Positions 15,679-40,793 are shown, numbered from the stretch's first letter. The stretch is DNA of 43,010 bases from Parcubacteria group bacterium (GCA_014383885.1 JACNGX010000021.1:1-43010); one strand, 5' to 3'. Notes: a model not told the origin generated them from the letters alone. Made by a program: numbers and translations.

Positions 15679-15682
15679 GTTG

Positions 15683-16196: not shown

Positions 16197-16206
16197 AGCT
16201 TGTATT

Positions 16207-21776: not shown

Positions 21777-21780
21777 AGTG

Positions 21781-22431
21781 TTATAGTTGAATCGGCTTAT
21801 CAAGTTCGCCGGGATTAAATATGCGGTAAAAAAGTTCAATCAATTCTTCCGTACCCAGAGGCGATGTGCGGATACCGGTACGGACAAGTCCTTGTTGTAC
21901 GACATAGGCACGCTGTTCAAGCTGGGAGCGATTTACTTCAAATTCATCCTGCTCTTTATCCTCCCCTCTCGAGCGCTTTTTCTTCGTTCCTAAAACATCG
22001 CCAAGAATGCCTGTGTCGGTTGCAATGAACGAAGGGGTGTATGGGACGACGATGAAAAAGTTCTTTGACATGATATTAGTCTGTTCGGTAAATGTTTTAA
22101 TGAAGCGAATGTATTCGCGAATCTGTACTTTTGAGAGGTCGTTTATCTGCTCTTTTTCGCGCCGTTCGAGAAGCGCGACATAGGGGCGAACGTCATATCG
22201 TCGAGATTGGATGTAGATTTGTACCGAGAAGTCAAGCGAGTTGAGAAAGTTTTGAAATTGAATGAGAATAGATTGCTGTTCGTCGGGAGACTTAAGCGAC
22301 ATATTCACCGATGATGTCATGAGTACCATCTTGAGCGAACCGTCTTCCATCACCGCCACACCGTCTCGTACCTCTTTGATAGGCACGAATCGTTGTGATG
22401 CTTGTGATTTTTCTTTGTTTGATGTTGGCAT
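21781..22431 (-). CDS. VirB4 N-terminal-extension-like protein. It is a separate ORF; VirB4 may be split or frameshifted here.
   Basis: FVPIKEVRDGVAVMEDGSLKMVLMTSSVNMSLKSPDEQQSILIQFQNFLNSLDFSVQIYIQS resembles the N-terminal extension of long Gram-positive VirB4 proteins. Its stop codon lies 4 nt from the virB4 ATG. The two frames overlap across the A6 run at 21828-21833. Confidence 0.55.
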   Translation of the reverse strand: MPTSNKEKSQASQRFVPIKEVRDGVAVMEDGSLKMVLMTSSVNMSLKSPDEQQSILIQFQNFLNSLDFSVQIYIQSRRYDVRPYVALLERREKEQINDLSKVQIREYIRFIKTFTEQTNIMSKNFFIVVPYTPSFIATDTGILGDVLGTKKKRSRGEDKEQDEFEVNRSQLEQRAYVVQQGLVRTGIRTSPLGTEELIELFYRIFNPGELDKPIQL

Positions 22432-22446
22432 GGTGCTAATAATAGC

Positions 22447-22866
22447 TTACTGAACGTTCTTTTGCACATCCAAACTCCAGGCAATATCTTTGAGTTTGCT
22501 CTGTGAGAGTGATGGCACGTGCATCGTCTCCGGTAAGGGGGCAGGTTCCTGAACAGCGGCTTTTTTCTGAGCCTCTTTCTTTTTCCATTCCTGGCTCCAA
22601 ATGTAGAGCTTTGCGCGCGTTACATATAAAAAAGCGGCCTCCAAAACATCAATAAAAGGTCGCTTGTGTATTTTCAGAAACGCAAGCGCAATACCCAAGC
22701 TCGCAATGGGAAGAATGAGGAGTATGGCGAAGAAAAAAGGAAGTGATGCATACAAGACATATGAGATACCTGCAGCACCGGCCAAATAGAGAAATTGGCG
22801 AAACGAGAGAGCTCCGGCAAAGACCTTATCTTCAACTTCAATGAATTGTGGTGTTTGGAATTGCAT
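22447..22866 (-). CDS. PrgI/VirB3-like small two-TM T4SS protein.
   Basis: N-terminus MQFQTPQFIEVEDKVFAGALSFRQFLYLAGAAG, followed by two hydrophobic helices. Confidence 0.65.
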   Translation of the reverse strand: MQFQTPQFIEVEDKVFAGALSFRQFLYLAGAAGISYVLYASLPFFFAILLILPIASLGIALAFLKIHKRPFIDVLEAAFLYVTRAKLYIWSQEWKKKEAQKKAAVQEPAPLPETMHVPSLSQSKLKDIAWSLDVQKNVQ

Positions 22867-22939
22867 AGTTGAGTCGCAAGCTTTGAGCGCTGGTATCTAC
22901 AATACTAGCCGGCGCGCTACCGCGCGCCTCACTCCTCTT

Positions 22940-23599
22940 TTACTCCACCGGTTCACGATACGGATCAGGCGGAGTTTCCGGAGACGGTGAGGGAGCGGTG
23001 TTGGATTTTGTTTCCTCGCTATGCGCTTCTCTGAGAGTTGTTTCTTGGGTTATTTTTTTCTCAATAATACTTTGGTGAGTAGTCTCCTGTTTCTCTGCTC
23101 CCATATACTCTTGTTTTTGGGGAGCTCCAGGTAGGGATACTTCCTTTTTCGGTCGGGTCTCTTCACGTTCTGGTATGGGAAGAGGATGTTCAATTTCTCG
23201 TAAAATTTCATCGCGTGTCGGTAAGTGCATTGTCATTTCCTCATCTTTTTCTTCTCCCGCGACATTTTCTTTGGGGGCACTGAGAGATGCACGCATTGGC
23301 TCAAGAATCTCAGTATTCACATCAGCGAGAATTGCTTCAGCTGCTTCTTCGGAAACACCAAGCTCTTCAGAAAGCGTCGGGAGATATGACTCCCTTGGAA
23401 TAAGTCCAAGTATCACAAAGACGGTTATGTCATTGAGTGTAGCCAACTGATCGATGTGGAGATTGTGGTGATTTCCGATACGACGAAGCGCCTTCCCTGT
23501 TTCTTGAGATTCAAGAACTTCTTGTATTGCTTTAGGAAGAGCAGTGAAGCGATCCTCCATCTGTTGTTGTGTGAATTGTTGCATAGATACCAAAGACAA
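22940..23599 (-). CDS. Hypothetical bitopic protein (one TM helix and an acidic, low-complexity C-terminus).
   Basis: ORF within the T4SS block. TM segment ITVFVILGLI. Confidence 0.5.
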   Translation of the reverse strand: MSLVSMQQFTQQQMEDRFTALPKAIQEVLESQETGKALRRIGNHHNLHIDQLATLNDITVFVILGLIPRESYLPTLSEELGVSEEAAEAILADVNTEILEPMRASLSAPKENVAGEEKDEEMTMHLPTRDEILREIEHPLPIPEREETRPKKEVSLPGAPQKQEYMGAEKQETTHQSIIEKKITQETTLREAHSEETKSNTAPSPSPETPPDPYREPVE

Positions 23600-23605
23600 T
23601 AATGA

Positions 23606-26149
23606 TTATGTATTAGTATTTTTTTCTGTCGCTTTTGTCGTGTTTTTTGCTACGTTGGAAATATCTTCACGCGCGTATCTGTTTTGCTTTTCAGCGAGTC
23701 TTGTGTATTCCTTCAACTCTCCCATTTTCTTTTCTTGCCGCGAGGAAAGCTTACTGAGTGTTTCAAAGTTTGAAAGGCTTTGCGCGTGCTTTGATTCAAG
23801 ACTCGCGAGTTCTTGATTCTGTGCGCTTGATCGGTTGGGAACAGCAGAGAGCGCTCCGTTTTGTTGGACAAGTTTATTTTCTCGCTTTTCTTCAAGTTTC
23901 ATGAGCACGGCGATTTTACCAAGCGTTGTATTGAGCTGATCCATCTGTGTTTGAGCTTGTTGGGGTGTGCCATATGTTTTCTTCATAGAGTCAATCCTTG
24001 CTTTATCACGAGCTTTCTCTGCTTCGACATTTGCTCGCTTCTCTCTCAGTTCGTCACCCTTTTTAATCGCCGAACCAGTCTTTTGAGCGGCTTGCGCTTT
24101 GGCTATTGTTTTCGCCGATGCTACTCCTCTAGCGGCACGATCCAACGCTTGCTTCTTTGCCTCCTTCTCAACGTCTCTCATCTCTTCCTGTGCGGCGTCA
24201 TAATCCTCATGTCCTTGCGAAACACGCTTCAATGATTGGTAATACGGATTATTTGTCAGTGCCTCATTTGTGGTACCCGTTACTCCACTTTCTTTCAAGA
24301 GACGCTCTTCATATCGTGTATGTGCTTTTCGCGCCGCAGCTGCTTTTGTTTCATCTTTATCATTAAGGTCGCCCATCTTCTTTCTGAGCTCATCTTGTTT
24401 TTTATCTTCTCGCTCTACAGTACCGGCAAATCCTCCTTCGCCGCCCTTCACTCCCCATGCGCCGACAGATTTCGTGACCCCACCCATGCCAACAGCCCCG
24501 GCAAGACCACCTGCTTTACCCATTGCCATGCCGCCGAGCTTTGTGTTTCGCGCGTCAAAACTCCCCTTTTCCATGCCTTCCATAGCGCGCAAGCGGAGGC
24601 GATCAAGTTTCCCTCCGGAAGCAAGGCGCTGGCGCCGTGTCATGCCATCGGAGCCGACACGATTTAAATTCTTCATTGCGCCGGCACCCAAGACTCCGCG
24701 CCCGAGAAGCGCTGTGCCACCTGTCGCCACAGCAGCACCAAGCCCAACTGCCGCTCCGGCAATACCGGCGATTTTTTTGCCAATATCAAGCGATACTCCC
24801 CCAATTGAATCACACATTTTCTTGGTAATATTTTTTGCGTAGAAGAGGATGGCGGTGAGTACGGTGAATTTCAATAGGACGATGATAAATGTCTCAAAGA
24901 AATCTTTGTTATTTCCGAAATTATTCCAGGTATTGGCCCCTTCCAAAAATTGCAAGGTAAACCACAAGAGGAAGAGAAAGACGGTAATACAAAATGATTT
25001 GCTCACGAGCTCTCCCCAGAAATTTTTTCTTACGTATGCTGCGGATTGTGGCAAAATCATACCAACAAAGGCAAGCGGTGAAACAGCCATAAGAAGCCAC
25101 AGAATGGCAACACGAGTGAGAAAGAGAAACGATGTTGTGAAAAGTATCCACGCAAGCACACCCATAAGGGAGGCGCTCAGAAGAAAATAGATTATAAGAT
25201 TGAAATGTTGCGTTTCCGGAGGAACTACCTGGTCGGTCCATAGTTTCAACCAGGTGCCTCCTTTCGCTTTCACCAGCCCATTTTCAAGAGATATCATTTC
25301 ATTGATACTGGTGTAGTGCAAGAAAGCCCCCGACACCCCCTTTACATCACCTTCTCCAATCCATTGTTCGATAAACGTTCCTTTCAGTACTGAATTGCCC
25401 GATATAAGCTTTTCACCATCTTTCACATTTTGGGTTTTGTGTACTTCAAAGTCGTTGTAGAAAAACATAGCAAACATGTTTCCAGCATCCACAATGACAC
25501 GAGTGATGAAAAAACTAAAATTAATCAAAAGGGCAACGATAATGAGTTTGGAAAGAAGATCTTTGGCTGTATTGTTTCTAACACGTAAAATAGTAGCAAT
25601 TGCAACCCACAGCAATATAAAAATAAATGCCATGTTTGCCAAGTCGCGGACATTTTCCCATACTGTTTTTATAAACTCCTGATCAATAAGCCCTCTACTG
25701 ATAGAAAGAAGCAAGACTATGTCAAAGAAGTTGCCGATTGCTCCCAGAATAAAGGATGCCGGCATGTAGAGGAGATAATATGTCCCCACCGCGAGACATC
25801 CGGTGAAGCCAGGCGCCCCCTTCATGAGATTACATTTCATGTAATCGGTGATGTCGGGTTTATTATCTGCGCTAGATTTTTGTTTATCATAATAGTCTTG
25901 AGCAGCGCCATCCCCAGGACTGCCCGGCGAGCTTGTTGAGCGCACTGGGCGTTTCGGTACCTTTTGTGATATGCTGATATCGCGTATTGATGGTTGAGCA
26001 TACGCTTTGTTTTGCGAAAGAGAAGGGAGGTTTTTTTGAGAATTAGGTTGTGAAAAAGAAAATGGAGCAAGCAAAAGAAATGCAATAATAAAAGACACGA
26101 CTTTCGTTTGGATTTTCTTTTTTGTATGGGGGGTGAACTCTAATCTCAT
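23606..26149 (-). CDS. VirB6/TrbL-like polytopic membrane protein with a C-terminal Gly-rich plus coiled-coil extension of about 380 aa.
   Basis: Signal-like N-terminus, at least 8 hydrophobic helices, then a GAAVGLGAAVATGGTALLGRGVLGAGA... segment and a charged coiled-coil tail. The start at 26149 (MRLEF) is preferred because the upstream ATG at 26185 lies inside a terminator hairpin. Confidence 0.6.
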   Translation of the reverse strand: MRLEFTPHTKKKIQTKVVSFIIAFLLLAPFSFSQPNSQKNLPSLSQNKAYAQPSIRDISISQKVPKRPVRSTSSPGSPGDGAAQDYYDKQKSSADNKPDITDYMKCNLMKGAPGFTGCLAVGTYYLLYMPASFILGAIGNFFDIVLLLSISRGLIDQEFIKTVWENVRDLANMAFIFILLWVAIATILRVRNNTAKDLLSKLIIVALLINFSFFITRVIVDAGNMFAMFFYNDFEVHKTQNVKDGEKLISGNSVLKGTFIEQWIGEGDVKGVSGAFLHYTSINEMISLENGLVKAKGGTWLKLWTDQVVPPETQHFNLIIYFLLSASLMGVLAWILFTTSFLFLTRVAILWLLMAVSPLAFVGMILPQSAAYVRKNFWGELVSKSFCITVFLFLLWFTLQFLEGANTWNNFGNNKDFFETFIIVLLKFTVLTAILFYAKNITKKMCDSIGGVSLDIGKKIAGIAGAAVGLGAAVATGGTALLGRGVLGAGAMKNLNRVGSDGMTRRQRLASGGKLDRLRLRAMEGMEKGSFDARNTKLGGMAMGKAGGLAGAVGMGGVTKSVGAWGVKGGEGGFAGTVEREDKKQDELRKKMGDLNDKDETKAAAARKAHTRYEERLLKESGVTGTTNEALTNNPYYQSLKRVSQGHEDYDAAQEEMRDVEKEAKKQALDRAARGVASAKTIAKAQAAQKTGSAIKKGDELREKRANVEAEKARDKARIDSMKKTYGTPQQAQTQMDQLNTTLGKIAVLMKLEEKRENKLVQQNGALSAVPNRSSAQNQELASLESKHAQSLSNFETLSKLSSRQEKKMGELKEYTRLAEKQNRYAREDISNVAKNTTKATEKNTNT

Positions 26150-26164
26150 AGCACTATTATAACA

Positions 26165-26198
26165 GAAAAAACACGCCTTCTGCATAGGTGAAGGCGTG
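26165..26198 (-). terminator. Intrinsic terminator after the lipoprotein gene.
   Basis: CACGCCTTC (9-nt loop) GAAGGCGTG, followed on the minus strand by TTTTTT. Confidence 0.5.
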
Positions 26199-26208
26199 TG
26201 TATAGCAA

Positions 26209-26778
26209 TTACCTCTTTTGGGAGTTAATAAACTCCCTAGTCTCGTCGGGGAGGAACATAAGTCTCCCCTTTATTGCCGGGATGAAATCTCCCGGCCATG
26301 CACCTGTATAGATCGCCACGAGGCAGCGATCTATAAGTGTGTATTTTAGCGCCGCATACTTATCATTCGGCGCTATATATATTTTATGCAGATTCTCTCT
26401 TGCCTTAGTAAGAGAGAATCTGCCATTCTTGTTGTGCTCCGCTGTGCGGAGCATCTTAAAAATGTATTCACTCCACCCGTCCAACTCTTCATACCCCACA
26501 ACGGAGTATGAAGAGGTGAGCGTCTCGTGCGAGATGCTCGCTACGGTAATCTCCTCACGCACTTTAAGTGCGCGAGTGATGTACTTTAGATGCTCTTCCC
26601 ATTCGGGAATAGCGGTTTGTACCTCAAACATGGCGATTACTTCTTCGCCATATTTCTCTTCCAGCGTCGGTTCCGGCGTAAGTATCGGACCGACGGGATT
26701 TTTCTCGTCGTTTATGCACCCCGTCAGAAAGAACGGGATGGTGATGGCGAGCAACAAAAGTATTTTTCTCATTTTCAT
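26209..26778 (-). CDS. Lipoprotein (lipobox LTGC).
   Basis: MKMRKILLLLAITIPFFLTGCINDEK. The ORF track starts further upstream at 26931, but that extension covers the promoter. Confidence 0.7.
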   Translation of the reverse strand: MKMRKILLLLAITIPFFLTGCINDEKNPVGPILTPEPTLEEKYGEEVIAMFEVQTAIPEWEEHLKYITRALKVREEITVASISHETLTSSYSVVGYEELDGWSEYIFKMLRTAEHNKNGRFSLTKARENLHKIYIAPNDKYAALKYTLIDRCLVAIYTGAWPGDFIPAIKGRLMFLPDETREFINSQKR

Positions 26779-26857
26779 TTTTTTCTCCGTTTTGAGGCGG
26801 CGGCGTGAGCCGCCGCCTGGTTTATTTGTACAAGTACAAGATAATTTATTCTGCTTA

Positions 26858-26886
26858 TATATTAAACCAAAAACCTGTTTTGTCAA
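26858..26886 (-). promoter_or_regulatory. Promoter TTGACA-N17-AATATA (minus strand) for the lipoprotein/T4SS operon, with a GGCGGCGGC-tcac-GCCGCCGCC hairpin in the leader.
   Basis: The reverse complement reads cctATTGACAaaacaggtttttggtttAATATA. A perfect DnaA box TGTGGATAA lies at 26905-26913, just upstream of the -35. Confidence 0.45.
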
Positions 26887-26930
26887 TAGGATGTTTTGAG
26901 AGGGTGTGGATAACTTTGTCCTCAAAAACA

Positions 26931-26966
26931 CTAAAAACGCCCTTTTCAGGGCGTTTTTAGTGTTTT
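26931..26966. terminator. Bidirectional intrinsic terminator.
   Basis: AAAAACGCCC ttttca GGGCGTTTTT. Confidence 0.6.
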
Positions 26967-26978
26967 TGAGAGTTGCTT

Positions 26979-28466
26979 CTATTCTTCAGCGTCTCCTTGT
27001 TGTGTGCCAAGATGCTGCAGAATTACTTGTACGTTGTTGTATGTTTCGTTGATACGACCGACAACGTTCTCGACATCAGACTTTGTTTGAAGAGCGAGAG
27101 CGCGGGAATAGGTGTCGATTGGCTCGTGAAGATTATTGAAGTTTGAATAGAGAGGAATGATCTCGGATGGAGTGTCGGCACTGAGTGCTTGCGTGTGGAG
27201 AGATGTAAGCGAAGAGAAGTATGTATCGGTAATGTTGGATGTCTCAATGAGTGCTTGAACGGATGAGAGATCGTCGATTGAGTCTTCAATTTCACGCTGG
27301 AGAGAGGTGAGCCCTGTGCGGGTAATGATTACGACATCACCGGAATCAACAATGACTGATATACCGCGATCGTCCATATAATCAAGAATATCATCGATTT
27401 CGGAAATAGTGAGTGTGCCTGTGGTGATACCCTCCTGCACCATTTCACCAAGAGTGAGTACGTCATCTGAAAGAGCAAGTTCCGCTTCGATAATGTCGAT
27501 AAGCTCTTGATCTACACCAACAACTTGCTGAAATCCGCCACCACTCCCCGATCCGGATGAGCCACCGCCTGCAAGCGATGAGATGCCGTCGGAAATAAGG
27601 CTCATGACGAGATTTTGAATCATACTTGCCAGGAATTCCTCGATTTCATCGGCGTTTTCAAGACTTTCAAGAGGACTGCCAAGCGCATCGGAAAGTGTGT
27701 TCGTGATGAATTGCCCGGGAGTGAGACGTTCCCAGCGAGCACAGCCATCGTCGGCGTTGACGACACCATCGAGATTTTTATCGACACCGACCGACTCAAG
27801 GCATTTTCCGGGAAGAGAGAGGAGCCCGCCGCTTTGCTCAAGCTCAGACTTAACATTCCCAAGAGCATTTTCAACCTGGCGAGCGTGTTCTTCGGCTGCC
27901 ATGAACCCTTGACCGATAGCGCTGTTTTCCGGCATGACAGTGTGAGCAAGAAAACCTGTCCAACCACCACCTTCAAAAAAGCCGTCCTCGAACGCATCAG
28001 GATTGATAAGGATATCTTCAAGAGAACTCTTGGCATATTCTGAATATGGCGTGTAGCTTTGCGAGAGAAGCTTGAGGATCTCGGTTTTAATTGGCCCGTA
28101 AATATCCGCATTGCTTACTTCGCTCATGAATGCCGTGGTCACATCGCGTGAGAGTTTGGCGAAGAAGGCGTCGGGGTCGGTGATGAGAAGCTCATCGCCG
28201 AAAAAGCCCGAATTGATGAAAGAGCGAAGGTCGCCAATAATATCTCCCACGAGCATTTTAGCGACTTTCCATGCGATGCCGTCGAGACCGAGCTCTTTGG
28301 GAAGAATGGTTCTGTCACGTGTAATGTCTTTGAGTACAATCACCGCATCACCTGCTCCGAAGAGTGCATGGGCGGGAGCCGGACGTGCGATAATGCCACC
28401 AAACATAAAGAGTGGAACGAGGATGCCGAGTGTGAGTGTGCGAAGGTGTGAAAGGTGAAACGTCAT
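26979..28466 (-). CDS. Secreted hypothetical protein (495 aa).
   Basis: Signal peptide MTFHLSHLRTLTLGILVPLFMFGGIIARPAPAHA. Acidic. Contains a GGGSSGSGSGGG linker. Confidence 0.6.
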   Translation of the reverse strand: MTFHLSHLRTLTLGILVPLFMFGGIIARPAPAHALFGAGDAVIVLKDITRDRTILPKELGLDGIAWKVAKMLVGDIIGDLRSFINSGFFGDELLITDPDAFFAKLSRDVTTAFMSEVSNADIYGPIKTEILKLLSQSYTPYSEYAKSSLEDILINPDAFEDGFFEGGGWTGFLAHTVMPENSAIGQGFMAAEEHARQVENALGNVKSELEQSGGLLSLPGKCLESVGVDKNLDGVVNADDGCARWERLTPGQFITNTLSDALGSPLESLENADEIEEFLASMIQNLVMSLISDGISSLAGGGSSGSGSGGGFQQVVGVDQELIDIIEAELALSDDVLTLGEMVQEGITTGTLTISEIDDILDYMDDRGISVIVDSGDVVIITRTGLTSLQREIEDSIDDLSSVQALIETSNITDTYFSSLTSLHTQALSADTPSEIIPLYSNFNNLHEPIDTYSRALALQTKSDVENVVGRINETYNNVQVILQHLGTQQGDAEE

Positions 28467-28490: not shown

Positions 28491-29480
28491 CTAGAGGGCA
28501 AACATGCTACCTACCTCACTCTCTGAAAAGGTAAGTGAAGCATCGGATAAAATACCAACAAGCGACTGCGCCGCGTATTCCATGCGGGTAAGTGACGTTT
28601 GGTATGTGGTGAGTCCGGTGAGGCCGATGACGGTATCGTCGGACATGTCGTGAATGTAGGTGAGTGACATGGCCATCGTTTGAAGAGTGTTAAGGATTTC
28701 GAGATGAGTATCAATAAGAGTGGAAGGTACGGAAAGCGCAAAGAGTGCATCGTGCATGTCGGTAAAGAAGGTGATGAAGCGTTTCAAATCCGAGAGACGC
28801 GATAAATTGCCACTTTCGATTGCATCGGTAATAATAGCGACTTCATAGGGAGCGCCCAGCTCATCGTAAGCGAGAATGAATGATGCAAGTGTGTTGGCGT
28901 ATGTGCGCAGGAGCGTGGAGCTTTCGGTAATAGTGTCAACAACAATATCTTCTTCCGTGTAAGTGTTTTGAGGAATATTTTGAGCGACTTCATTACTGAT
29001 GATGTCTTCAAGAACAGAAATGTCTTCAATCGTTGGATTTCCTTCGGTGCCGATGTGATACAAATGACTCATAAACGTACGAGAGACAGCGTCGGAGCGC
29101 GTACTCCCTCCTTCCCCCGCGGCTTCATCTGAGGGAACAATGGGATATGCCTCAAGTGTGTCGTCAACGGCGTTTACAAGCGGATTACGACGCGCGGCGA
29201 TTTCAATACCGTCTCCGGTGCCGTCGCCGTCGGAATCGGCGACATTTGGATTGGTTCCCCAGAGAGCTTCTTCCCAATTAGAAAGACCGTCTAAATCGGT
29301 GTCTTCCGTGCCAAGTGAGATTTTCTCTCGTTCTTCATCAGTGATGACAAGAAGTGGCTCGGTGTCGATCGGTCTTTCTTTCGGACGAGTAAATGAATAC
29401 ACAGCTATACCGATAACAGCAATGAGAGCGACGGCAAGCACAAAGCGACTACTGGGGAGATAGTGAGTGATATGTTGCAT
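28491..29480 (-). CDS. Membrane-anchored hypothetical protein with a thrombospondin-type-3-like calcium-binding Asp repeat.
   Basis: N-terminal TM helix FVLAVALIAVIGIAVYSF and the repeat DTDLDGLSNWEEALWGTNPNVADSDGDGTGDG. Confidence 0.55.
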   Translation of the reverse strand: MQHITHYLPSSRFVLAVALIAVIGIAVYSFTRPKERPIDTEPLLVITDEEREKISLGTEDTDLDGLSNWEEALWGTNPNVADSDGDGTGDGIEIAARRNPLVNAVDDTLEAYPIVPSDEAAGEGGSTRSDAVSRTFMSHLYHIGTEGNPTIEDISVLEDIISNEVAQNIPQNTYTEEDIVVDTITESSTLLRTYANTLASFILAYDELGAPYEVAIITDAIESGNLSRLSDLKRFITFFTDMHDALFALSVPSTLIDTHLEILNTLQTMAMSLTYIHDMSDDTVIGLTGLTTYQTSLTRMEYAAQSLVGILSDASLTFSESEVGSMFAL

Positions 29481-34859: not shown

Positions 34860-35263
34860 AGATGTATTATCAGACAGTTTTTTCTGCCTGGATCCTGAAT
34901 CGAGTTCAGGATGACGGCGGATTTTGCCGTTCCGTACAAAAAACAAGAGGCCCGTTAGAAACGAGCCCCTCAGGAGGTGAAGCGTGGACGGAAATAATCG
35001 ATATCAAGTGACTGACAAAATTGTCTAGAGGAAATAAATGAGTGAATGTGAAAGACGTAAAAAAGAGGAGAGTTGTGCGCGCGCACGACATTCAAACAAA
35101 TAAACCAAAAGGCAATAACATCAATCAATTGATATACAACTATCGAAATCAAACTTCACTTGAAAAGAACAAGAAAAAAGAACAAAATGAGCACAAGGAA
35201 CAGAAAACTGAAACTATTCTCGCATATCAATGCATACTGTCAAGCTCTCCTGTGGAAAACGTC

Positions 35264-35875
35264 CTACTCCTTTTGCTTTTTGCCGATTTTTTTGACAAGC
35301 AGGAGGTGCTTTTCGTAGTCTGGCTTTCCGTTTTGGTCGGTTTCTGTTTCTACCAGGATTGTTTTAGTTTCTATGTCGTACTCCTTCTCCAGTTTTTCAA
35401 GAATGATGAGCAGGTTGCGCTCCTCGTCAACAATTCCCTCCCATTCTTTCCCGCTGTCTTTGAATATTGGAAATACTTTTAACTCACCGCCGTTGGTAAG
35501 TGAGTCGAGAGCGTTCTTGAACGCGGTGTACGTACTCTCAACATCTTCATGCAAAGACAATGAAAGCGCGGCTAAAGAGACGACTACGTCCATGTCGGTG
35601 TATGGAATTGACTCTCTAAAATCGCCTTGTGAAAAATGATCGACAAATTCATCTTGCGTGGGAGGTCTTTTGTCCATGCCGTATGCCGCACTAGTGATAT
35701 CTTCTGAAAGGAGAAAGTTTATAAAGTCTCCGGAATCACATCCGAGATCAAGAATGCGTTTGTTCCTCAAGTCCTCAGGAGCAAAGAGGAATGATTCCTT
35801 GTACCGTTTCACCGTCTCTGCATCGTATGATTCAGAGGAATGTTCAGCTTGCGATTGTGGGGATTCTTTGCTCAT
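35264..35875 (-). CDS. Class I SAM-dependent methyltransferase.
   Basis: Motif I ILDLGCDSGDF. 203 aa. Start codon 6 nt after the stop of the ClpB-like gene. Confidence 0.7.
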   Translation of the reverse strand: MSKESPQSQAEHSSESYDAETVKRYKESFLFAPEDLRNKRILDLGCDSGDFINFLLSEDITSAAYGMDKRPPTQDEFVDHFSQGDFRESIPYTDMDVVVSLAALSLSLHEDVESTYTAFKNALDSLTNGGELKVFPIFKDSGKEWEGIVDEERNLLIILEKLEKEYDIETKTILVETETDQNGKPDYEKHLLLVKKIGKKQKE

Positions 35876-35880
35876 AGTGT

Positions 35881-38271
35881 TTACGCAATATCTGTCGGCG
35901 AAAGCGTGATTGAGCCACCGCGCGCAATTTCGCCTTTGATGAGTCCGTCGGCGATATATTGCTCAATGTGTTGCTGGATATAGCGTTGCATGGGGCGGGC
36001 ACCGAATGCTCTGTCGTAGCCCTCGTGCGCGACGTGTTTTGCCATGTCGGGAGAGAACGATACTTTTATTCCTTGCTGCTTGAGTCGCTCGGTGAGTTTG
36101 TCGAGCATGAGTGTGGCGATTTGTTCTATATGCTCGGGTGACAACGGATGAAAGAGGATGGTGCCGGAGAAACGGTTTAAGAATTCGGGCTTGAAGAGCT
36201 GTTCGTCTATGAGTGAGGCAATGAATGCATCATGTTCTTTTGATATATCGCGCCCTTCCTCAGTTGCTTTCCAAATTATATCGGATCCGGCATTGGATGT
36301 GGCGATGAAGAGAATATTGCGTGCATTTACACTCCGCCCTTCTCCGTCGGAAAATTGTCCTTCGTCGAGAATTTGGAGAAAGAGATCGTGGACATGGGGA
36401 TTTGTCTTTTCAAACTCGTCCAAAAGAAGTACGCCATAGGGTTTTTGACGGATCATGGTGGAGAGAATGCCCGCCTCCCCTGCCGGCGTGCCGATCAAGC
36501 GTGAGAGTGCATCGCCTTCGCGGTATTCTGACATATCAAGACGAAGGAGATTGTCTTCACTGCCGAAAAATACACGCGCGAGTGCTTTTGCGGTTTCTGT
36601 TTTCCCCACACCTGTCGGACCAAAGAAGAGAAATGACCCTATTGGTTTCTTATTGTCGCGCACGTTGGCACGCGCGCGGCGCAGTGCTTGCGCGATTGCC
36701 GAGATAGCTTCTTCTTGACCGACGACATGTTTGTGTAAGTGATGCTCTAAATCAGTGAGCACAAGTCGCTCGGTGTCGGAGAGTTCGCCTGCGGGAATGC
36801 CGGTTTTCTCCGAGACAAGAGCGAGAATGTCTTTGGCGGTGATGAGGCGGCTGCGAGTGGAGGTGCTTCGTGTTGCTGCTTCGGCAATGATGTCGCGTGT
36901 TTTGTCTTCCGCATCGTCGCCACTGAAATATTGCTTGCTTGCACGGACGGCTTCCTCAAGCGCCGGATAGGTGAAGAAGACGTGATGGTTTTTCTCCAAA
37001 CGAGCAATATCGGATTCAAGAAAGGTGGTGAGTCGCGTGTCGGAGAGCGTTGCGCTTTTCACCACTTCAAAACGGCGCATGAGTGAGGTGTCGCGCTCAA
37101 GCTCATGGATGTAGGTGCGCGTGTCGGAGAGCGCAAGAAATGGCACTGCTGTTCCTGAAAGATATGGATCAATCAAAGAACGAATGTCGCTTCCGAGTAT
37201 GGCGGCTGAGGAGAGAAAAGCATGGAAACGTGGCACGACGATGATACTATTGCCGGCTTTGCGTGCTTCTTCGAGGGTGTCGCGGAGCGTTGTTTCAAAG
37301 AGGTGCTTTTCGCCTGTGCGCGATACAAGAAGGTCGGTATCAAGAACGATGACGTGTTTCCCAAAAAGGGTTTGGGGCACTTTATGGCGAGTGATAGCCC
37401 CTTCAAGCATGGAGGCAAGTGTGTGTGCGTCAAACGAACCGACGAGCAAAACATTTGATTCACGTGTTTTTCCGAGACCGCTCACGACGCGAGAGAGGGT
37501 ATCGTTTTCCATAAATGATCCCGATGATCCATAACGAGGATGATGCGTGTAGGTGTCAAGAAGGTGTGTACGGGAGAGGTGTAAATCCTTTCCAATAGGA
37601 CGAGTGTGGAGAAGTCGTTTTTCCGACCACCAAAACGCTTCATCGAGATGGCGTTCGCGCATGCGCGCGACCCAGCCGGAAGCGCGCGTGGCTGTCTCGG
37701 ATGTGATGTGCCTGCTGAAGAGGAAGTCCGCCATCGCTTCGTCTGTGGCGATAAGCTCGGAAACAAAATCCTCAAGCGAATACCACGGTGAGGCGTCTGA
37801 ATCGGTGAGAGCAAGGTTGGTGGGGCGATGTCCACGTTCCTTCAAAAAGGTGTGGGTGTCGTTCTGTGAGAGCCCGAGACGGCGTGCGAGATCCTTCCCT
37901 GTCTTCGAGCGAAAAAGCGCGCGAACGTAATCGCCGCGGTGTGCGCTTGTTAGAATACTCAATACTCCGAGAGAGATGAGCCCTTCTTTTCCTTCGGTAG
38001 TATGAATACCGCGTGCGTGGAAATATAGTGACCGGAAGTACCATTCCGCCATGGAGAGTGTGAGTACGACTGCAAAGATAATGAGTCCGACACCGGCAAG
38101 GAATTGGGCATACGGGAGTGAATGGAAAAGTGCCGCGCCGAAAAAAAGCAGGAGTGCGAGAACGGTAAGGAATGTACGCATACGCAAGCGCCTTTTCCGC
38201 GGTAATAGACGCTCAAGGGTTGCGAGTGGATAAAGCGAGCTGTGTATGATGCGGGAACGGAAGGCATTCAT
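35881..38271 (-). CDS. ClpB/ClpC-like AAA+ protein with an N-terminal TM anchor, a degenerate first nucleotide-binding domain and an intact second one.
   Basis: D2 carries GPTGVGKTE and LLLDEFEK. The D1-homologous segment reads VLLVGSFDAHTLASMLEGAI...IVVPRFHAF in place of GEPGVGKT / FIDELH. Two N-terminal hydrophobic helices. The start may be 38271 (M42) or 38181. Confidence 0.75.
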   Translation of the reverse strand: MNAFRSRIIHSSLYPLATLERLLPRKRRLRMRTFLTVLALLLFFGAALFHSLPYAQFLAGVGLIIFAVVLTLSMAEWYFRSLYFHARGIHTTEGKEGLISLGVLSILTSAHRGDYVRALFRSKTGKDLARRLGLSQNDTHTFLKERGHRPTNLALTDSDASPWYSLEDFVSELIATDEAMADFLFSRHITSETATRASGWVARMRERHLDEAFWWSEKRLLHTRPIGKDLHLSRTHLLDTYTHHPRYGSSGSFMENDTLSRVVSGLGKTRESNVLLVGSFDAHTLASMLEGAITRHKVPQTLFGKHVIVLDTDLLVSRTGEKHLFETTLRDTLEEARKAGNSIIVVPRFHAFLSSAAILGSDIRSLIDPYLSGTAVPFLALSDTRTYIHELERDTSLMRRFEVVKSATLSDTRLTTFLESDIARLEKNHHVFFTYPALEEAVRASKQYFSGDDAEDKTRDIIAEAATRSTSTRSRLITAKDILALVSEKTGIPAGELSDTERLVLTDLEHHLHKHVVGQEEAISAIAQALRRARANVRDNKKPIGSFLFFGPTGVGKTETAKALARVFFGSEDNLLRLDMSEYREGDALSRLIGTPAGEAGILSTMIRQKPYGVLLLDEFEKTNPHVHDLFLQILDEGQFSDGEGRSVNARNILFIATSNAGSDIIWKATEEGRDISKEHDAFIASLIDEQLFKPEFLNRFSGTILFHPLSPEHIEQIATLMLDKLTERLKQQGIKVSFSPDMAKHVAHEGYDRAFGARPMQRYIQQHIEQYIADGLIKGEIARGGSITLSPTDIA

Positions 38272-38273
38272 AT

Positions 38274-38663
38274 TTATGAGAACATGAGAATAAAACCCAT
38301 GAGGGCGAGTGCAGGCGTGAGAATCGGGAGAGTAAGCCAGAGAATGAGAGCGATGACGAGAAGAGATATGGCGCCCAGAGTAAGAAGAAGGCATACGGCA
38401 ATGAGAAAGCTACGGGAAACCATGCCAACGATACGCATGAGCAGATTGACAACGACTGCTTCAAGGAAACGTATCGGCTCGACAATACTCGGATATGCTT
38501 CACGTTCTTTTTTCCACGGCTGAAAGAATGTGGTAAGGAGTGTGGAAAGTGAAAAGCTGTGCGCGATAAATTTCAAAAATGTGTGCGAAAGACGCAGCGC
38601 GTCTAAGGTACCGCGTGTGTAATGCCAGAGAATGTATCGACCCATAAGTGCGACGGTAGTCAT
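38274..38663 (-). CDS. Small polytopic membrane protein (about 129 aa), probably co-transcribed with the ClpB-like gene.
   Basis: Hydrophobic C-terminal half. Its stop codon abuts the ClpB-like start. Confidence 0.4.
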   Translation of the reverse strand: MTTVALMGRYILWHYTRGTLDALRLSHTFLKFIAHSFSLSTLLTTFFQPWKKEREAYPSIVEPIRFLEAVVVNLLMRIVGMVSRSFLIAVCLLLTLGAISLLVIALILWLTLPILTPALALMGFILMFS

Positions 38664-38988
38664 GAGGATAGTATAGCATGGGGGAGTGTACGGTTTGTAG
38701 CCAAGAGCTTTGAGGAAGTGGATAAAAGAAATGGAAGTTGTACGTGGTAAGTATTGAGTTGTGAGAAAGGGGCGCGGCTCCGCCGCGCCCCTAACATGTA
38801 TATCGTCATTCCCGCCTCTCGGCGAAAATCTTCGGGAAATATGGTATAGCAAAAAACGGGCGGCGGGCTACGCCCGCCGCCCTCCCCTACCCCAATCCTC
38901 CCCACACAAAACCTTGACTTTTCAGCAATAATGTGTATTGTTTAAGGTAGCAAATAGTACATTGTAAATTAAATAAAAGGAAACAGTC

Positions 38989-40305
38989 ATGGAAGAAACA
39001 ATTATTTCTTGGTCTCCCTCAGAGGGAGACGATAGGCGTCTCCAGGAAGAAAAAAACAAGAGAGATTTTTGGAGGAATGTATGGGTGGCGAACGGAATCA
39101 TCTTTGCCATTGCCGTTCTTGCGATACTCTTTTCCCCTTCAATCACTCTTGAATATCTCAACAACGAAGGAGAGAAGATGTTCGTTCCAGTATGGAATTG
39201 GGGGTGGTTTCTTCTTGCGATGCAGTTTTTGTATTCCGTCGCGTACCCTCTCCTACCACTTTTTTGGGAGAGAGGAGAAGTTGAAATTCCAGAGGAGCTC
39301 CTAAAGGGGGCTATGAATCTTAATGAGACGGAAGAGAAAAGGGAAGAAAGGAAAAATGCCGGTATTCTCACCGTTAAGGAATACGAGATTGAGAGGATGC
39401 GATGGAAGTCGGAGAAATATCCTACAGTTCCTTCGGAAACGTATGGGATGTTGACGTTTATGGATGCACTTTTATTTCCGCTTCCTGATGGACTTGCTTA
39501 CATCCCTCCATTTTTTGGTATCAAGAGGGATACTAAAAAGATTGTGCAGTTTGAACTCCCTCCTAGTGAGCTGATTTATTGGGGAAGCGGTGACGTTCCA
39601 GAAGGGATGTATGCTCCTCTTCGCTTTGGACAGGTGGGTAAACCTTCAAAAGTAGAAGCTGAGGAAAACAATCCGCTTAGCAATAATCAGACGACGGATG
39701 GAAGCATCCAGGCGCGAATCCGTATTGACGGCAAGAGTCTGTACGAGTATTTCACCACTATCGGTACTCTGAAAAATGCCGAGAAGATGATACTTGATGC
39801 TATGGTGAGTAAGGTGCAGGCAATTCTGGGCAAGAAGACTCCTCTCTGGACAAAAAGAAACTTCGACAAGGTCAATGAGGAAATCACAAGGGCTTTGCAT
39901 AAGTTCGTTGTAGGGTGGGGTGTTGTTGCACTCGATGTGTACCTTGTTAATTATGACTATAGTCATGAGACAAACAAGAGTATGCGGGGTGTTGTTGTTG
40001 CTGAGTTTGAGAGAAAAGCGACAGTTACCAGGGCGGAAGGAGAGCGAGAGAAGCGCATGCTTGAAGGTCAAGGCCAGGCAGATGCTGATAAAGCGATTGG
40101 TGACGCGAAGACCGACGTGCTAGTTAAGAGGACGGAAGAACTCGATGTAACCGGCGCTGAAGTGCTCGGCGCAGAGACCGCTGGTGATGTTGCGAAGAAT
40201 GTGGAAGACCTGACTGTTCTTGGAGAGAACGTTGGTTCTGATACGTTCAAGTTCGGCAAACTCTTTGACCAAGGAGCAAAGTCAAACAAGGGAGGTAAGA
40301 AGTGA
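38989..40305 (+). CDS. SPFH/band-7 (stomatin/flotillin/HflKC-like) membrane protein.
   Basis: N-terminal TM helices. A band-7-like core with a characteristic Ala/Glu-rich coiled-coil tail (ERKATVTRAEGEREKRMLEGQGQADADKAIGDAK). Confidence 0.6.
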   Translation: MEETIISWSPSEGDDRRLQEEKNKRDFWRNVWVANGIIFAIAVLAILFSPSITLEYLNNEGEKMFVPVWNWGWFLLAMQFLYSVAYPLLPLFWERGEVEIPEELLKGAMNLNETEEKREERKNAGILTVKEYEIERMRWKSEKYPTVPSETYGMLTFMDALLFPLPDGLAYIPPFFGIKRDTKKIVQFELPPSELIYWGSGDVPEGMYAPLRFGQVGKPSKVEAEENNPLSNNQTTDGSIQARIRIDGKSLYEYFTTIGTLKNAEKMILDAMVSKVQAILGKKTPLWTKRNFDKVNEEITRALHKFVVGWGVVALDVYLVNYDYSHETNKSMRGVVVAEFERKATVTRAEGEREKRMLEGQGQADADKAIGDAKTDVLVKRTEELDVTGAEVLGAETAGDVAKNVEDLTVLGENVGSDTFKFGKLFDQGAKSNKGGKK

Positions 40306-40793
40306 ATGATTTTGTCATGACAAACCTTCCTGCGCTGATACCGCTCTTTCTGGTGCTTGCGGTGTCCTCACTCCTCCTTTTTTTAGGAGGGAGGAAAAAT
40401 GGTACGAAGAAAAAATCTGACGACGCGAAGACTGCGAAGAGGAAGTGGGGTGATAGTATTGCCCGTCTTTATAAAAAGACAGGGCTTCCCTATTTCTTTG
40501 GGACGAGGGTAACCAAGTTCCAGAAGGTGGGGGTGAATGTGGCAATATTCGCTTTTTTGTTTGCGGGTATTTACCATGTTTATCCCGAGATATGGGAAAC
40601 ATATCTCGTCGAACACCTGCCCTGGAAGATGGCTGCCGCCGTTGTCGCCAGCTATGTGCTGGTACGGAAGTATGATGGCGATGAGGGGTTCAATGTGTAT
40701 GAGAACCGCCTCTTTGACATACTGACGTGGGGGCTCGGCGTTGGGGTAGTCGCATTCGTTGCGAGCGCCCTGCGCAGTTGCGTGGGACTGTAG
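40302..40793 (+). CDS. Small membrane protein whose start overlaps the stop of the SPFH gene (putative SPFH partner).
   Basis: ATGA overlap and three hydrophobic segments. Confidence 0.5.
   Translation: MNDFVMTNLPALIPLFLVLAVSSLLLFLGGRKNGTKKKSDDAKTAKRKWGDSIARLYKKTGLPYFFGTRVTKFQKVGVNVAIFAFLFAGIYHVYPEIWETYLVEHLPWKMAAAVVASYVLVRKYDGDEGFNVYENRLFDILTWGLGVGVVAFVASALRSCVGL

What the first reader, a model, noticed from the sequence alone, without database searches (positions are those of the whole stretch)
35264..38663. Operon of a small membrane protein, a membrane-anchored ClpB-like AAA+ protein with a degenerate NBD1, and a SAM methyltransferase
The ClpB/ClpC homolog keeps a canonical second ATPase domain. 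Its first domain, though clearly homologous, has lost Walker A (GSFDAHT in place of GEPGVGKT) and Walker B (VVPRFH in place of FIDELH). The protein also begins with two TM helices, which is unusual for Clp/Hsp100 unfoldases. The tight coupling (4-nt and 6-nt gaps) to a small polytopic protein and a methyltransferase suggests a dedicated membrane-associated remodelling or quality-control module rather than a general chaperone.
Basis: partly seen in the sequence, partly recalled or inferred. Interest (0 to 1): 0.6.

Follow-up and report, generated by a model that had tools for sequence, protein, structure and literature searches.

The report
Membrane-anchored Clp-like ATPase with small partner
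This is a membrane-tethered relative of the ClpB/ClpC protein-unfolding machines with one dead and one live ATPase ring; across the ultra-small CPR (Patescibacteria) bacteria it is always encoded right after a small helical membrane protein, no one has studied it, and the neighbouring methyltransferase-like gene is only a local add-on.

Summary
On the minus strand lie a 129-aa membrane protein (38274-38663), a 796-aa Hsp100/Clp-like ATPase (35881-38271) and a 203-aa methyltransferase-like ORF (35264-35875). The gaps are 2 and 5 nt, not 4 and 6.

New findings:
- The D1 pore-loop tyrosine is lost in 135/135 family members.
- The D2 GYVG pore loop is shortened, and has no aromatic residue in this clade.
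- There is no ClpP-docking loop and no M-domain.

This is a large family with more than 150 clusters at 50% identity. All named members come from CPR/Patescibacteria. Databases call them only "Clp ATP-binding subunit" or "AAA family ATPase".

The small protein immediately precedes the ATPase in 49/49 informative metagenome loci (median gap 2 nt). The methyltransferase-like gene occurs only in a narrow subclade. An SPFH gene pair is a neighbour only in this sub-lineage. In about half of the other lineages an FtsQ homologue sits upstream.

Best reading: a ClpP-independent, D2-driven two-protein membrane machine. Its function is inferred, not shown. It is a new variant of a known kind.

The parts
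38274..38663 (-). Gene for the 129-aa helical membrane protein, the obligate upstream partner. Conserved motifs: Y10, W13-H14-Y15, F37-S38, P49-W-K/R, V72-N73..M76-R77..G80, R84, W109...P113.
   Evidence: ORF. Alignments A3, A5, A7 and A8. 376 homologues of 124-173 aa (all but one under 150 aa), no Pfam hit, and every organism name given is a CPR lineage. AlphaFold pLDDT 90.5, all-helical. No PDB fold match. Precedes the ATPase in 49/49 loci.
35881..38271 (-). Gene for the 796-aa membrane-anchored class-I Hsp100/Clp-like ATPase (TM hairpin, Clp_N-like domain, pseudo-D1, active D2, D2-small). GenBank MBC8464932.1, annotated 'ATP-dependent Clp protease ATP-binding subunit'.
   Evidence: dN/dS 0.16-0.24 against relatives.
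38035..38172 (-). N-terminal transmembrane hairpin (residues about 34-52 and 57-79). It is preceded by the basic stretch RKRRLRMR and followed by the conserved juxtamembrane motif (L)E.(F/Y)FRS.YF.
   Evidence: Kyte-Doolittle windows of 2.2 or more. Conserved across the family.
37633..37980 (-). Divergent Clp N-domain, a double four-helix repeat (residues about 98-213).
36862..37506 (-). D1 pseudo-ATPase module (residues about 256-470). It is homologous to ClpA/B/C D1 but has no Walker A, no Walker B and no pore-loop tyrosine.
   Evidence: dN/dS about 0.19-0.22, so it is maintained by selection.
37420..37440 (-). Walker A remnant GSFDAHT (residues 278-284).
   Evidence: Aligned to GEPGVGKT of ClpC. 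In the family, G..G.GK[ST] survives in 2/135 members and the Lys in 31/135.
37222..37239 (-). Walker B remnant VVPRFH (residues 345-350).
   Evidence: Aligned to FIDE(L/I)H. An hhD[DE] motif remains in only 26/135 members.
35884..36774 (-). D2 active ATPase module plus D2-small domain (residues about 500-796). Walker A GPTGVGKT, Walker B LLLDEFEK, sensor-1 TSN, Arg finger NRF, sensor-2 GARP. No ClpP-docking [ILV]G[FL] loop.
36469..36492 (-). Shortened D2 pore loop GTPAGEAG (residues 594-601) in place of G(A/S)PPGYVGY. It has no aromatic residue.
   Evidence: Five-residue gap against ClpC. Family comparison.
35264..35875 (-). 203-aa class-I-methyltransferase-like ORF, a lineage-specific third gene. 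GenBank MBC8464931.1, annotated 'hypothetical protein'.
   Evidence: Sub-threshold Pfam and NCBIfam methyltransferase hits. Only two homologues found in 5.8 billion proteins. Linked to the ATPase only in L007 and L066. dN/dS 0.15 against L066, so it is a real gene.
34944..34972 (-). Terminator-like hairpin plus T-run downstream of the third gene. Probable end of the transcription unit.
   Evidence: This is a consensus scan only.
38989..40793 (+). Divergently transcribed SPFH/Band_7 gene (438 aa) overlapping by 4 nt a 163-aa hydrophobic protein gene. A conserved neighbour in this sub-lineage only.
   Evidence: Band_7 hit at 4.3e-10. Weak HflC hit. The same pair lies next to the cassette in L003, L005 (partial), L009 and L012/13. 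The P0005 contig carries a divergent 431-aa and 154-aa gene pair of matching size (no Pfam hit on record; no DNA to test). It is absent from the other full-flank loci.

Best explanation
SHOWN.
- The region encodes a two-gene cassette that is conserved across CPR/Patescibacteria.
- Gene 1 is a 129-aa all-helical membrane protein of a family with no known relatives.
- Gene 2 is a class-I Hsp100/Clp-family ATPase. Its order is: short basic cytoplasmic N-terminus, two-helix membrane hairpin, divergent Clp N-domain, a D1 module that can no longer bind or hydrolyse ATP and has no pore-loop aromatic, a short ClpA-like linker with no M-domain, and a D2 module with every catalytic motif intact. D2 has a shortened pore loop and no ClpP-docking tripeptide.
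- The third ORF, methyltransferase-like, is a recent lineage-specific addition to the transcription unit.

INFERRED, the most likely mechanism.
- The ATPase assembles as a hexamer held on the cytoplasmic face of the membrane by 12 TM helices, together with the small partner.
- The D2 ring is the only motor. The N-domain and dead D1 ring act as a scaffold and as a binding platform for substrate or partner.
- The anchor is N-terminal, so the membrane faces the N/D1 entry side of the ring, as in FtsH and Msp1. The machine would therefore act on membrane-embedded or membrane-associated proteins by pulling, disassembling or remodelling them.
- It would work without ClpP and without DnaK coupling through an M-domain.
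- The small protein would be its membrane adaptor, co-anchor or regulated client.
- Recurrent neighbours are an SPFH pair in this lineage and FtsQ in many others. They point to membrane-protein or envelope/divisome housekeeping rather than general cytosolic disaggregation.
For: Architecture:
- Pfam, NCBIfam and PDB alignments.
- TM hairpin.
- Clp_N fold.
- D1 motif loss and D2 motif conservation across 135 family members.
- No ClpP loop (1/135 members) and a 36-aa D1-D2 linker, against 96 aa in a ClpC with an M-domain.

Family:
- 444 clusters at 50% identity score E<1e-30. The top 150 all match across the TM, N-domain and D1 regions.
- Source names are CPR only: Saccharibacteria, Yonathbacteria, Lloydbacteria, Pacebacteria, Minisyncoccia, and Patescibacteria or Parcubacteria group.

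Obligate pairing:
- 54 loci were retrieved with a small-protein motif. All 49 with room downstream carry the family ATPase immediately downstream.
- The gap is 20 nt or less in 48/53 loci, the median is 2 nt, and 16 loci have a 4-nt overlap.
- No fused forms were found.

Selection: dN/dS is 0.19-0.22 on D1 and 0.17-0.31 on the small gene.

Context:
- The SPFH pair is adjacent in the window clade.
- An FtsQ homologue lies directly upstream in 16 of 35 other loci.
- Other neighbours are housekeeping genes: serS, dus, dprA, topA, uvrD.

The direction argument (N-domain to D1 to D2 translocation polarity; FtsH and Msp1 anchored on the entry face) comes from established knowledge of Hsp100, FtsH and Msp1. 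It was not tested here.
Against: - There are no functional data at all.
- In the window's own clade neither pore loop has an aromatic residue. In ClpB and Hsp104 that abolishes threading (established knowledge). Processive extraction is therefore doubtful here. 81/135 family members keep an aromatic, mostly Phe, in the short D2 loop.
- With an inert D1 ring, a substrate would have to span the N and D1 layers to reach the D2 motor.
- Hexamer formation, physical interaction with the small protein, and membrane insertion are all inferred. TM helices were called from hydropathy only. AlphaFold draws the small protein's hydrophobic tail as one long helix.
- Both the SPFH and the FtsQ neighbourhood occur in only part of the family, so each may be plain synteny.
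Confidence: 0.45

Rival explanations
1. Non-threading ATP-driven switch. The D2 ring does not translocate polypeptides. It uses ATP binding and hydrolysis to change the conformation or assembly state of the small membrane partner, or of a complex built on it. This would resemble torsins, which are ClpB-D2-like, membrane-associated AAA+ proteins without pore-loop aromatics that work with membrane-bound cofactors.
For: - The D1 pore aromatic is absent in 135/135 members.
- The GYVG motif is absent from the whole family, and the window clade has no aromatic at all in the D2 loop.
- The ATPase is strictly paired, apparently 1:1, with a small membrane protein.
- The torsin comparison is from established knowledge.
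Against: - Unlike torsins, the Arg finger (NRF), sensor-2 (GARP) and the D2-small domain are intact.
- A Clp N-domain, normally a substrate or adaptor receptor, is retained.
- Most family members keep a Phe in the D2 loop.
Confidence: 0.25
2. FtsH/HflKC-like supercomplex in this lineage. The membrane Clp-like hexamer works inside or beside a cage formed by the divergently encoded SPFH protein and its 163-aa partner, which would regulate access of membrane substrates.
For: - The SPFH (Band_7 4.3e-10; weak HflC hit) and 163-aa genes overlap by 4 nt. They sit head-to-head with the cassette in the window.
- The same pair is next to the cassette in L003, L005, L009 and L012/13, and a divergent gene pair of matching size is on the P0005 contig. 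These span Saccharibacteria-like and Yonathbacteria MAGs.
- That HflK/C cages FtsH is established knowledge.
Against: - The SPFH pair is absent within 5 kb in every full-flank locus of the wider family, and in L001.
- The 163-aa protein has no NfeD or other family hit.
- Divergent orientation means there is no co-transcription.
Confidence: 0.15
3. The methyltransferase modifies the ATPase, its partner or its substrates as an integral part of the module.
For: - The gap is 5 nt on the same strand, and a terminator-like hairpin appears only after the third gene.
- The linkage is kept in L007 and in L066, where the ATPase is 69% identical.
- dN/dS is 0.15.
Against: - The gene is absent from all other 49 or more loci, and from relatives at 62% identity.
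- Only two homologues exist in the protein collection.
- Methyltransferase assignment is below every curated threshold.
Confidence: 0.1
4. An ordinary Clp protease ATPase subunit or general ClpB chaperone, as the GenBank annotation says.
For: The best database hits are ClpB, ClpA and ClpC. The GenBank name is 'ATP-dependent Clp protease ATP-binding subunit'.
Against: - Scores are about a third of every equivalog cut-off.
- There is no ClpP-docking loop and no M-domain.
- D1 is dead and the pore loops are degenerate.
- There is a TM hairpin.
Confidence: 0.04
5. Anti-phage defence ATPase (Dodola DolB-like or PDC-M37) or a decaying pseudogene.
For: PADLOC DolB and PDC-M37B models hit the D2 core at 1e-37 to 1e-24.
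Against: - The hits cover only about 160 residues of the generic AAA_2 core, and no partner gene hits.
- The cassette sits among core housekeeping genes across CPR.
- The ORF is intact, dN/dS is about 0.2, and the family is large and conserved.
Confidence: 0.02

Closest known systems
ClpA (class-I Clp/Hsp100, ClpP partner)
   Same: The domain order is the same: N-domain, D1, short linker, D2, D2-small, with no M-domain. The alignment is continuous over residues 256-790.
   Different: This protein has an N-terminal TM hairpin. D1 Walker A and B and both pore-loop tyrosines are lost. There is no IGL/IGF ClpP-docking loop. It scores 359 bits against a cut-off of 993.
ClpB / Hsp104 disaggregases
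   Different: This protein has no coiled-coil M-domain, so no route for DnaK coupling. D1 is dead. The GYVG loop is deleted. It is membrane-anchored.
FtsH (and Msp1/ATAD1), N-terminally membrane-anchored AAA+ extraction machines
   Same: In all of these an N-terminal TM anchor places the entry face of the ring at the cytoplasmic side of the membrane. This lineage also has a neighbouring SPFH gene, recalling HflK/C with FtsH. This is a resemblance in how it may work, not homology beyond the AAA+ fold.
   Different: It belongs to a different AAA+ clade: Hsp100 D2 (AAA_2), not the classical clade. It has no M41 protease domain, two AAA modules, and no aromatic pore-1 loop.
Torsins (ClpB-D2-like, membrane-associated, cofactor-dependent AAA+)
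   Same: Both have a D2-type module as the sole ATPase, are associated with membranes, lack canonical aromatic pore loops, and depend on a small membrane partner. The torsin properties are from established knowledge.
   Different: Torsins are eukaryotic and lumenal, have a single module, lack an Arg finger and have a non-canonical sensor-2. Here the Arg finger and sensor-2 are intact, and an N-domain plus pseudo-D1 are present.
Human CLPB/Skd3 and plant SMAX1/SMXL
   Different: Neither has a TM hairpin with a pseudo-D1 and an obligate small membrane partner. They share no direct sequence relationship with this protein beyond the Hsp100 family.

Membership tests
Class-I Clp/Hsp100 superfamily | D2 AAA_2 module with a ClpB_D2-small domain | tested here: met
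   PF07724 at 1.9e-42 and PF10431 at 4e-25. All catalytic motifs are present.
Class-I Clp/Hsp100 superfamily | A second, N-terminal AAA module (D1) homologous to ClpA/B/C D1 | tested here: met
   ClpC D1 aligns to residues 258-469, i-E 1.9e-17. ClpA aligns continuously from 256 to 790. AAA_lid_9 hit is weak.
Class-I Clp/Hsp100 superfamily | Clp_N double-repeat N-domain | tested here: met
Class-I Clp/Hsp100 superfamily | Functional D1 nucleotide site (Walker A GxxGxGKT and Walker B hhhhDE) | tested here: not met
   The motifs are GSFDAHT and VVPRFH. In the family, Walker A is intact in 2/135 members.
Class-I Clp/Hsp100 superfamily | Aromatic pore loops (D1 KYRG, D2 GYVG) | tested here: not met
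   The D1 column is D, E, T, N or S in 135/135 members. The D2 loop is shortened, and has no aromatic in this clade.
ClpB (TIGR03346 / PRK10865) | Coiled-coil M-domain between D1 and D2, and the equivalog score | tested here: not met
   The linker is 36 aa, against 96 aa in a comparison protein that has an M-domain. The score is 388 bits against a cut-off of 1232.
ClpA / ClpC / ClpE (ClpP-coupled unfoldases) | [I/L/V]-G-[F/L] ClpP-docking loop in D2, and the equivalog score | tested here: not met
   The motif is present in canonical comparison proteins (MGF, VGF, IGF) but in only 1/135 family members and not in the window protein. The ClpA score is 359 bits against 993.
ClpV / TssH (type VI secretion) | Equivalog score and a T6SS gene neighbourhood | tested here: not met
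   329 bits against a cut-off of 885. No T6SS genes appear in the window or in related loci.
FtsH | N-terminal TM helices, a single classical AAA module and an M41 zinc protease | tested here: not met
   The TM anchor is present. There is no Peptidase_M41 hit and the ATPase is AAA_2 type.
Class-I SAM-dependent methyltransferase (third ORF) | A Pfam or NCBIfam methyltransferase model above its curated cut-off, and the SAM-binding motif I | tested here: inconclusive
   FtsJ 22.7 bits against 24.1, Methyltransf_31 20.8 against 27, Methyltransf_23 20.7 against 27. A motif-I-like ILDLGCDSG aligns to LahSB at E 0.23.
Dodola / PDC-M37 defence systems | DolB-like ATPase together with its partner protein(s) | tested here: not met
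   Only the AAA_2 core hits DolB and PDC-M37B. None of the four neighbouring proteins hits any PADLOC model.
SPFH/HflKC-type modulator (neighbour gene) | Band_7 domain above the cut-off, and an NfeD-type partner | tested here: inconclusive
   Band_7 scores 40.4 bits against a cut-off of 23.6, so that part is met. HflC scores 19 bits against 134, not met. The 163-aa partner has no family hit.

The most novel reading that the evidence does not exclude
The small protein and the TM hairpins of the ATPase together form a membrane-embedded ring beneath a D2-only Hsp100 motor. This would be a previously unrecognised bacterial membrane AAA+ machine, confined to CPR/Patescibacteria. It would extract or remodel membrane or divisome proteins independently of FtsH and ClpP. 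It could be a core, possibly essential, component of the reduced proteostasis and envelope system of these epibiotic bacteria. In the window's clade it may have evolved further into a non-threading switch.
Probability: 0.2. Interest if true: 0.8.

Novelty: new variant of a known kind. Interest (0 to 1): 0.62.

Why it matters
Hsp100/Clp unfoldases are textbook soluble machines. I know of no membrane-anchored class-I member with a dead first ring, degenerate pore loops and an obligate small membrane partner. Four full-text literature searches found no description of one. No Pfam or NCBIfam model covers its N-terminal half or the partner protein.

The cassette is conserved across much of the CPR/Patescibacteria radiation, where a large share of genes have no assigned function. 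It sits among core genes, often next to ftsQ. Working out what it does would therefore bear on how these minimal, host-dependent cells handle membrane proteins or division.

The family also offers a natural series of D1 decay for AAA+ mechanists. Walker A is fully intact (GxxGxGK[ST]) in 2/135 members, keeps the Lys in 31/135, and is completely gone in this window. In practical terms, current annotations are misleading: 'ATP-dependent Clp protease ATP-binding subunit', with a start codon called 30 residues too late.

Tried and rejected
- A 13-sequence N-terminal alignment (A4) was too divergent to seed a metagenome scan. The small-protein alignment was used instead.
It was redone with proteins from the session's searches.
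- Sequence-level detection of a Clp_N domain failed. Pfam hit 1/31 members at E 0.03. A profile against PDB gave only a spurious SigF hit. The fold comparison settled the question.
- Foldseek of the small protein against PDB gave nothing significant. The best E was 1.9, to long ABC-exporter helices.
- No tRNA and no Rfam element is in the window.
- PADLOC hits to DolB and PDC-M37B were considered and rejected as generic AAA_2 similarity.
- The methyltransferase-like ORF gave only two homologues and no solved relative.
- The literature searches found no description of this family. One paper mentions a TM7x 'clpB' (TM7x_03020), whose membership could not be checked.
- No fusion of the small protein with the ATPase occurs among 159 proteins.
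- I could not test for a canonical clpB, clpC or clpP elsewhere in the genome. The window contains only this one AAA_2 gene.

Full report
**What is there.**
Three minus-strand ORFs occupy 35264-38663:
- a 129-aa protein at 38274-38663;
- a 796-aa protein at 35881-38271;
- a 203-aa protein at 35264-35875.

The junctions read TAA-AT-ATG (2 nt) and TAA-ACACT-ATG (5 nt). A terminator-like hairpin with a T-run follows only after the third gene, at 34972-34944. This fits one transcription unit, but the evidence is a consensus scan only.

The mechanical ORF for the large protein runs 41 codons further upstream and overlaps the small gene. All relatives begin at the equivalent of M-N-A-F-R, so 38271 is the real start. 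GenBank (MBC8464932.1) starts it 30 codons later still. The window is a 43,010-nt contig of a MAG labelled 'Parcubacteria group bacterium'.

**The large protein.**
Pfam finds AAA_2 (1.9e-42) and ClpB_D2-small (4e-25). NCBIfam ClpB, ClpA, ClpV, ClpK and ClpG models all hit, at about a third of their equivalog cut-offs. Against solved structures the best match is B. subtilis ClpC, with D1 at i-E 1.9e-17 and D2 at 6e-83.

- 'NVLLVGSFDA--HTLAS' faces 'NPVLIGEPGVGKTAIA'.
- 'NSIIVVPRFHAFL' faces 'NIILFIDELHTL'.

D1 therefore has neither a P-loop lysine/threonine nor Walker-B acidic residues. The same degenerate motifs occur in an uninterrupted ORF in relatives at 97% and 53% identity. dN/dS on D1 is about 0.2. 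This is a maintained pseudo-ATPase domain, not a sequencing or frame artefact.

D2 keeps all of the following, both here and in nearly all of 135 family members:
- Walker A GPTGVGKT;
- Walker B LLLDEFEK;
- sensor-1 TSN;
- the NRF arginine finger;
- sensor-2 GARP.

- *D1 pore loop.* The tyrosine (canonical TKYRG) is replaced by 'TGEK'. The aligned column is D, E, T, N or S in 135/135 family members, against Y, Y and F in canonical comparison proteins.
- *D2 pore loop.* Canonical 'PPGYVGY' is cut by 4-5 residues. The window clade reads 'GTPAGEAG' with no aromatic. 81/135 members keep an aromatic, usually Phe, directly after the conserved Gly-Ser.
- *ClpP docking.* Canonical proteins carry the ClpP-docking tripeptide between sensor-1 and the Arg finger (MGF, VGF or IGF in the three comparison proteins). 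The family has no such motif there (1/135).
- *M-domain.* The D1-D2 linker is 36 residues. It is 96 in a ClpC with an M-domain and 39 in a ClpA, so there is no M-domain.

The architecture is therefore: TM hairpin, Clp_N, pseudo-D1, D2.

**Membrane anchoring.**
Residues 34-52 and 57-79 are strongly hydrophobic (19-residue Kyte-Doolittle means up to 2.2-2.5). They are separated by 'SLPYAQ', preceded by RKRRLRMR and followed by R/K-containing sequence. By the positive-inside rule both ends, and hence the ATPase body, are cytoplasmic. This is an inference.

The hairpin is conserved throughout the family, together with a preceding 'YP...LE' motif and a following 'LE.FFRS.YF' motif. No dedicated TM predictor was available.

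**Family and distribution.**
A word-indexed search with the N-terminal half found only six close relatives. An exhaustive profile search of 1.84 billion cluster representatives found 444 proteins at E<1e-30. The 150 listed score 232 bits or more, are mostly 780-860 aa (the shorter entries look truncated), and match from about residue 10 through D1. This is a sizeable family.

Named sources are all CPR/Patescibacteria: Ca. Saccharibacteria and Ca. Yonathbacteria genomes, and 'Patescibacteria group' or 'Parcubacteria group' MAGs. Public names are only 'ATP-dependent Clp protease ATP-binding subunit', 'AAA family ATPase' or 'hypothetical protein'. Across the family Walker A of D1 decays stepwise: GxxGxGK[ST] in 2/135 members, the Lys retained in 31/135, and nothing left in the window clade.

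**The small protein is the constant partner.**
In every context retrieved through ATPase homologues, a gene of 86-130 aa called in the record directly precedes the ATPase. The one 86-aa call (L004) matches the full 129-position profile when extended upstream. The proteins are homologous.

For the reverse test I retrieved 54 metagenome loci using only a small-protein motif (VN[TL][LI]MR..G). All 49 loci with sequence downstream carry the family-specific N-terminal region of the ATPase immediately after it. D2 follows wherever the contig extends far enough. The five exceptions end at the contig edge. The estimated gap is 20 nt or less in 48/53 loci, the median is 2 nt, and the ATGA 4-nt overlap is the commonest arrangement.

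The small-protein family has these properties:
- 376 hits, 124-173 aa (all but one under 150 aa), no Pfam domain, and CPR names only;
- invariant Y10, W13-H14-Y15, F37, P49, N73, R77, G80, W109 and P113;
- a confident all-helical model, pLDDT 90.5;
- no significant PDB neighbour.

Its last 45 residues are hydrophobic. Whether they cross the membrane once or twice is unresolved. No fused forms exist among 159 ATPases.

**The third gene is not part of the conserved module.**
The 203-aa ORF follows the ATPase in three places only: the window, a 97%-identical contig (L007), and L066, whose ATPase is 69% identical. Relatives at 62% identity have other genes there or none. None of the other loci has it. 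Only two homologues exist in the 5.8-billion-protein collection.

It is a real gene, with dN/dS 0.15 against L066. Its methyltransferase identity rests on sub-threshold hits and a motif-I-like 'ILDLGCDSG'.

**Neighbourhood.**
In the window an SPFH/Band_7 gene (438 aa) is transcribed divergently from the cassette. It overlaps by 4 nt a gene for a 163-aa hydrophobic protein. The same pair lies beside the cassette in Yonathbacteria (L009), in L012/13, in a TARA scaffold (L003) and partly in L005. The P0005 contig carries a divergent gene pair of matching size (431 and 154 aa), which could not be tested because no DNA was held. The pair is absent from L001 and from the wider family.

In the wider family the recurrent neighbours are serS, a roughly 330-aa protein directly upstream on the same strand, dprA, topA, and dus downstream. 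The roughly 330-aa protein is an FtsQ homologue: a profile against PDB FtsQ gives E 1.4e-8 over nearly its full length, and POTRA_1 hits 13/17 members. It precedes the cassette in 16 of 35 non-redundant loci, and in 11 of those the gap is under 70 nt. No homologue of it was found in the window.

These are core-genome surroundings, not a mobile element or defence island. PADLOC hits are confined to the generic AAA_2 core.

**How it most likely works.**
*Shown:* the architecture, the motif states, the obligate pairing, the taxonomic restriction and purifying selection.

*Inferred:*
- It is a hexamer, tethered with the small protein to the cytoplasmic face of the membrane.
- D2 is the sole motor.
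- The N-domain and pseudo-D1 serve as scaffold and receptor.
- Hsp100s translocate from the N/D1 face towards D2, and the anchor is N-terminal. The membrane therefore lies on the entry side, as in FtsH and Msp1 (established knowledge). That geometry suits pulling on or remodelling membrane-embedded or membrane-bound proteins. It does not suit pushing proteins outward.
- Absence of the ClpP loop and M-domain argues against ClpP-coupled proteolysis and DnaK-coupled disaggregation.

The main weakness is the pore loops. Without aromatics in either ring, the window's own protein may not thread at all. A torsin-like non-threading switch acting on the small partner is therefore a serious rival (0.25, against 0.45 for the extraction/remodelling machine). 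An SPFH-caged arrangement like FtsH with HflK/C is a lineage-specific elaboration worth testing (0.15).

**Comparison and novelty.**
It works most like an FtsH/Msp1-type membrane AAA+ machine or a torsin-type switch. By descent it is a class-I Hsp100, closest in domain order to ClpA and in D2 sequence to ClpB and ClpC. It fails the defining tests of ClpB (M-domain), of ClpA/C/E (ClpP loop), of ClpV (score and context) and of FtsH (protease).

I found no description of it in the searchable literature and no curated model. I rate it a new variant of a known kind. It is widespread and conserved, and functionally unexplored.

**Limits.**
- No functional data exist.
- TM calls come from hydropathy alone.
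- Oligomeric state and partner contact were not modelled.
- The rest of the genome was not available, so I could not check for canonical Clp genes.
- Neighbourhood statistics come from 54 motif-selected loci plus about 10 others.

Noticed in passing
window 12000-16200: Probable chromosomal replication origin. dnaN (12124-13224, -) and dnaA (13486-15003, -) lie here, with yidC (16207-16995, +) just beyond. GC content drops to 0.33-0.38 at 12-15 kb. The cumulative GC-skew minimum falls at 13-14 kb.
   Followed up: partly
window 38858-38882 (- strand): A perfect 11-bp all-G/C hairpin (GGGCGGCGGGC gta GCCCGCCGCCC) is followed by a T-run. It sits in the divergent intergenic region between the small-protein gene and the SPFH gene. 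No upstream gene on that strand is available for it to terminate. No Rfam or tRNA match.
   Followed up: partly
window 38989-40793 (+): An SPFH/Band_7 protein (438 aa) is translationally coupled, by a 4-nt overlap, to a 163-aa hydrophobic protein with no family hit. The arrangement resembles SPFH-NfeD/YbbJ-type pairs, but this is unconfirmed.
   Followed up: partly
L010, L014, L016, L027, L029, L033, L036, L041, L046, L053, L059, L063 and others (upstream of the cassette): In the wider CPR family an FtsQ homologue sits directly upstream of the small gene on the same strand, in 16 of 35 loci. A profile against PDB FtsQ gives E 1.4e-8, and POTRA_1 hits 13/17 members. This hints at a link to the divisome or envelope. 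No homologue of it was found in the window.
   Followed up: yes
window 35881-38271 compared with GenBank MBC8464932.1: The public annotation starts the ATPase at M31 (766 aa). That removes the conserved N-terminal 'S.LYP...LE' motif and the basic cluster. The longest mechanical ORF (837 aa, to 38394) overshoots into the small gene instead.
   Followed up: yes
window 35884-36200 compared with L007 2480-2795: The window and L007 show mosaic divergence. The methyltransferase-like gene is 100% identical at nucleotide level. D2 of the ATPase has dS 0.19, and its last roughly 90 residues in P0001/L007 resemble the more distant relatives P0002 to P0004. This suggests recombination within the D2-small region.
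   Followed up: no
window 19911-28466 (-): A TraG/VirB4-like P-loop ATPase (19911-21839) is followed by large ORFs with no Pfam or NCBIfam hit: 859 aa at 23606-26185 and 495 aa at 26979-28466. A TSP3-repeat protein lies at 28491-29480. Together they look like a secretion, conjugation-like or surface-protein cluster.
   Followed up: no
window 2988-4691 (+) and 9175-11766 (+): A PilB/T2SSE-type secretion ATPase with an MshEN domain, and a class-A penicillin-binding protein with a C-terminal Big_7 domain. Both are ordinary CPR envelope genes.
   Followed up: no
L001 7762-9485; L003 5818-7487: In the closest Saccharibacteria-like relatives, a 436-455-aa protein with no family hit and a DUF5663 protein are inserted just upstream of the small gene. 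They are absent from the window.
   Followed up: no
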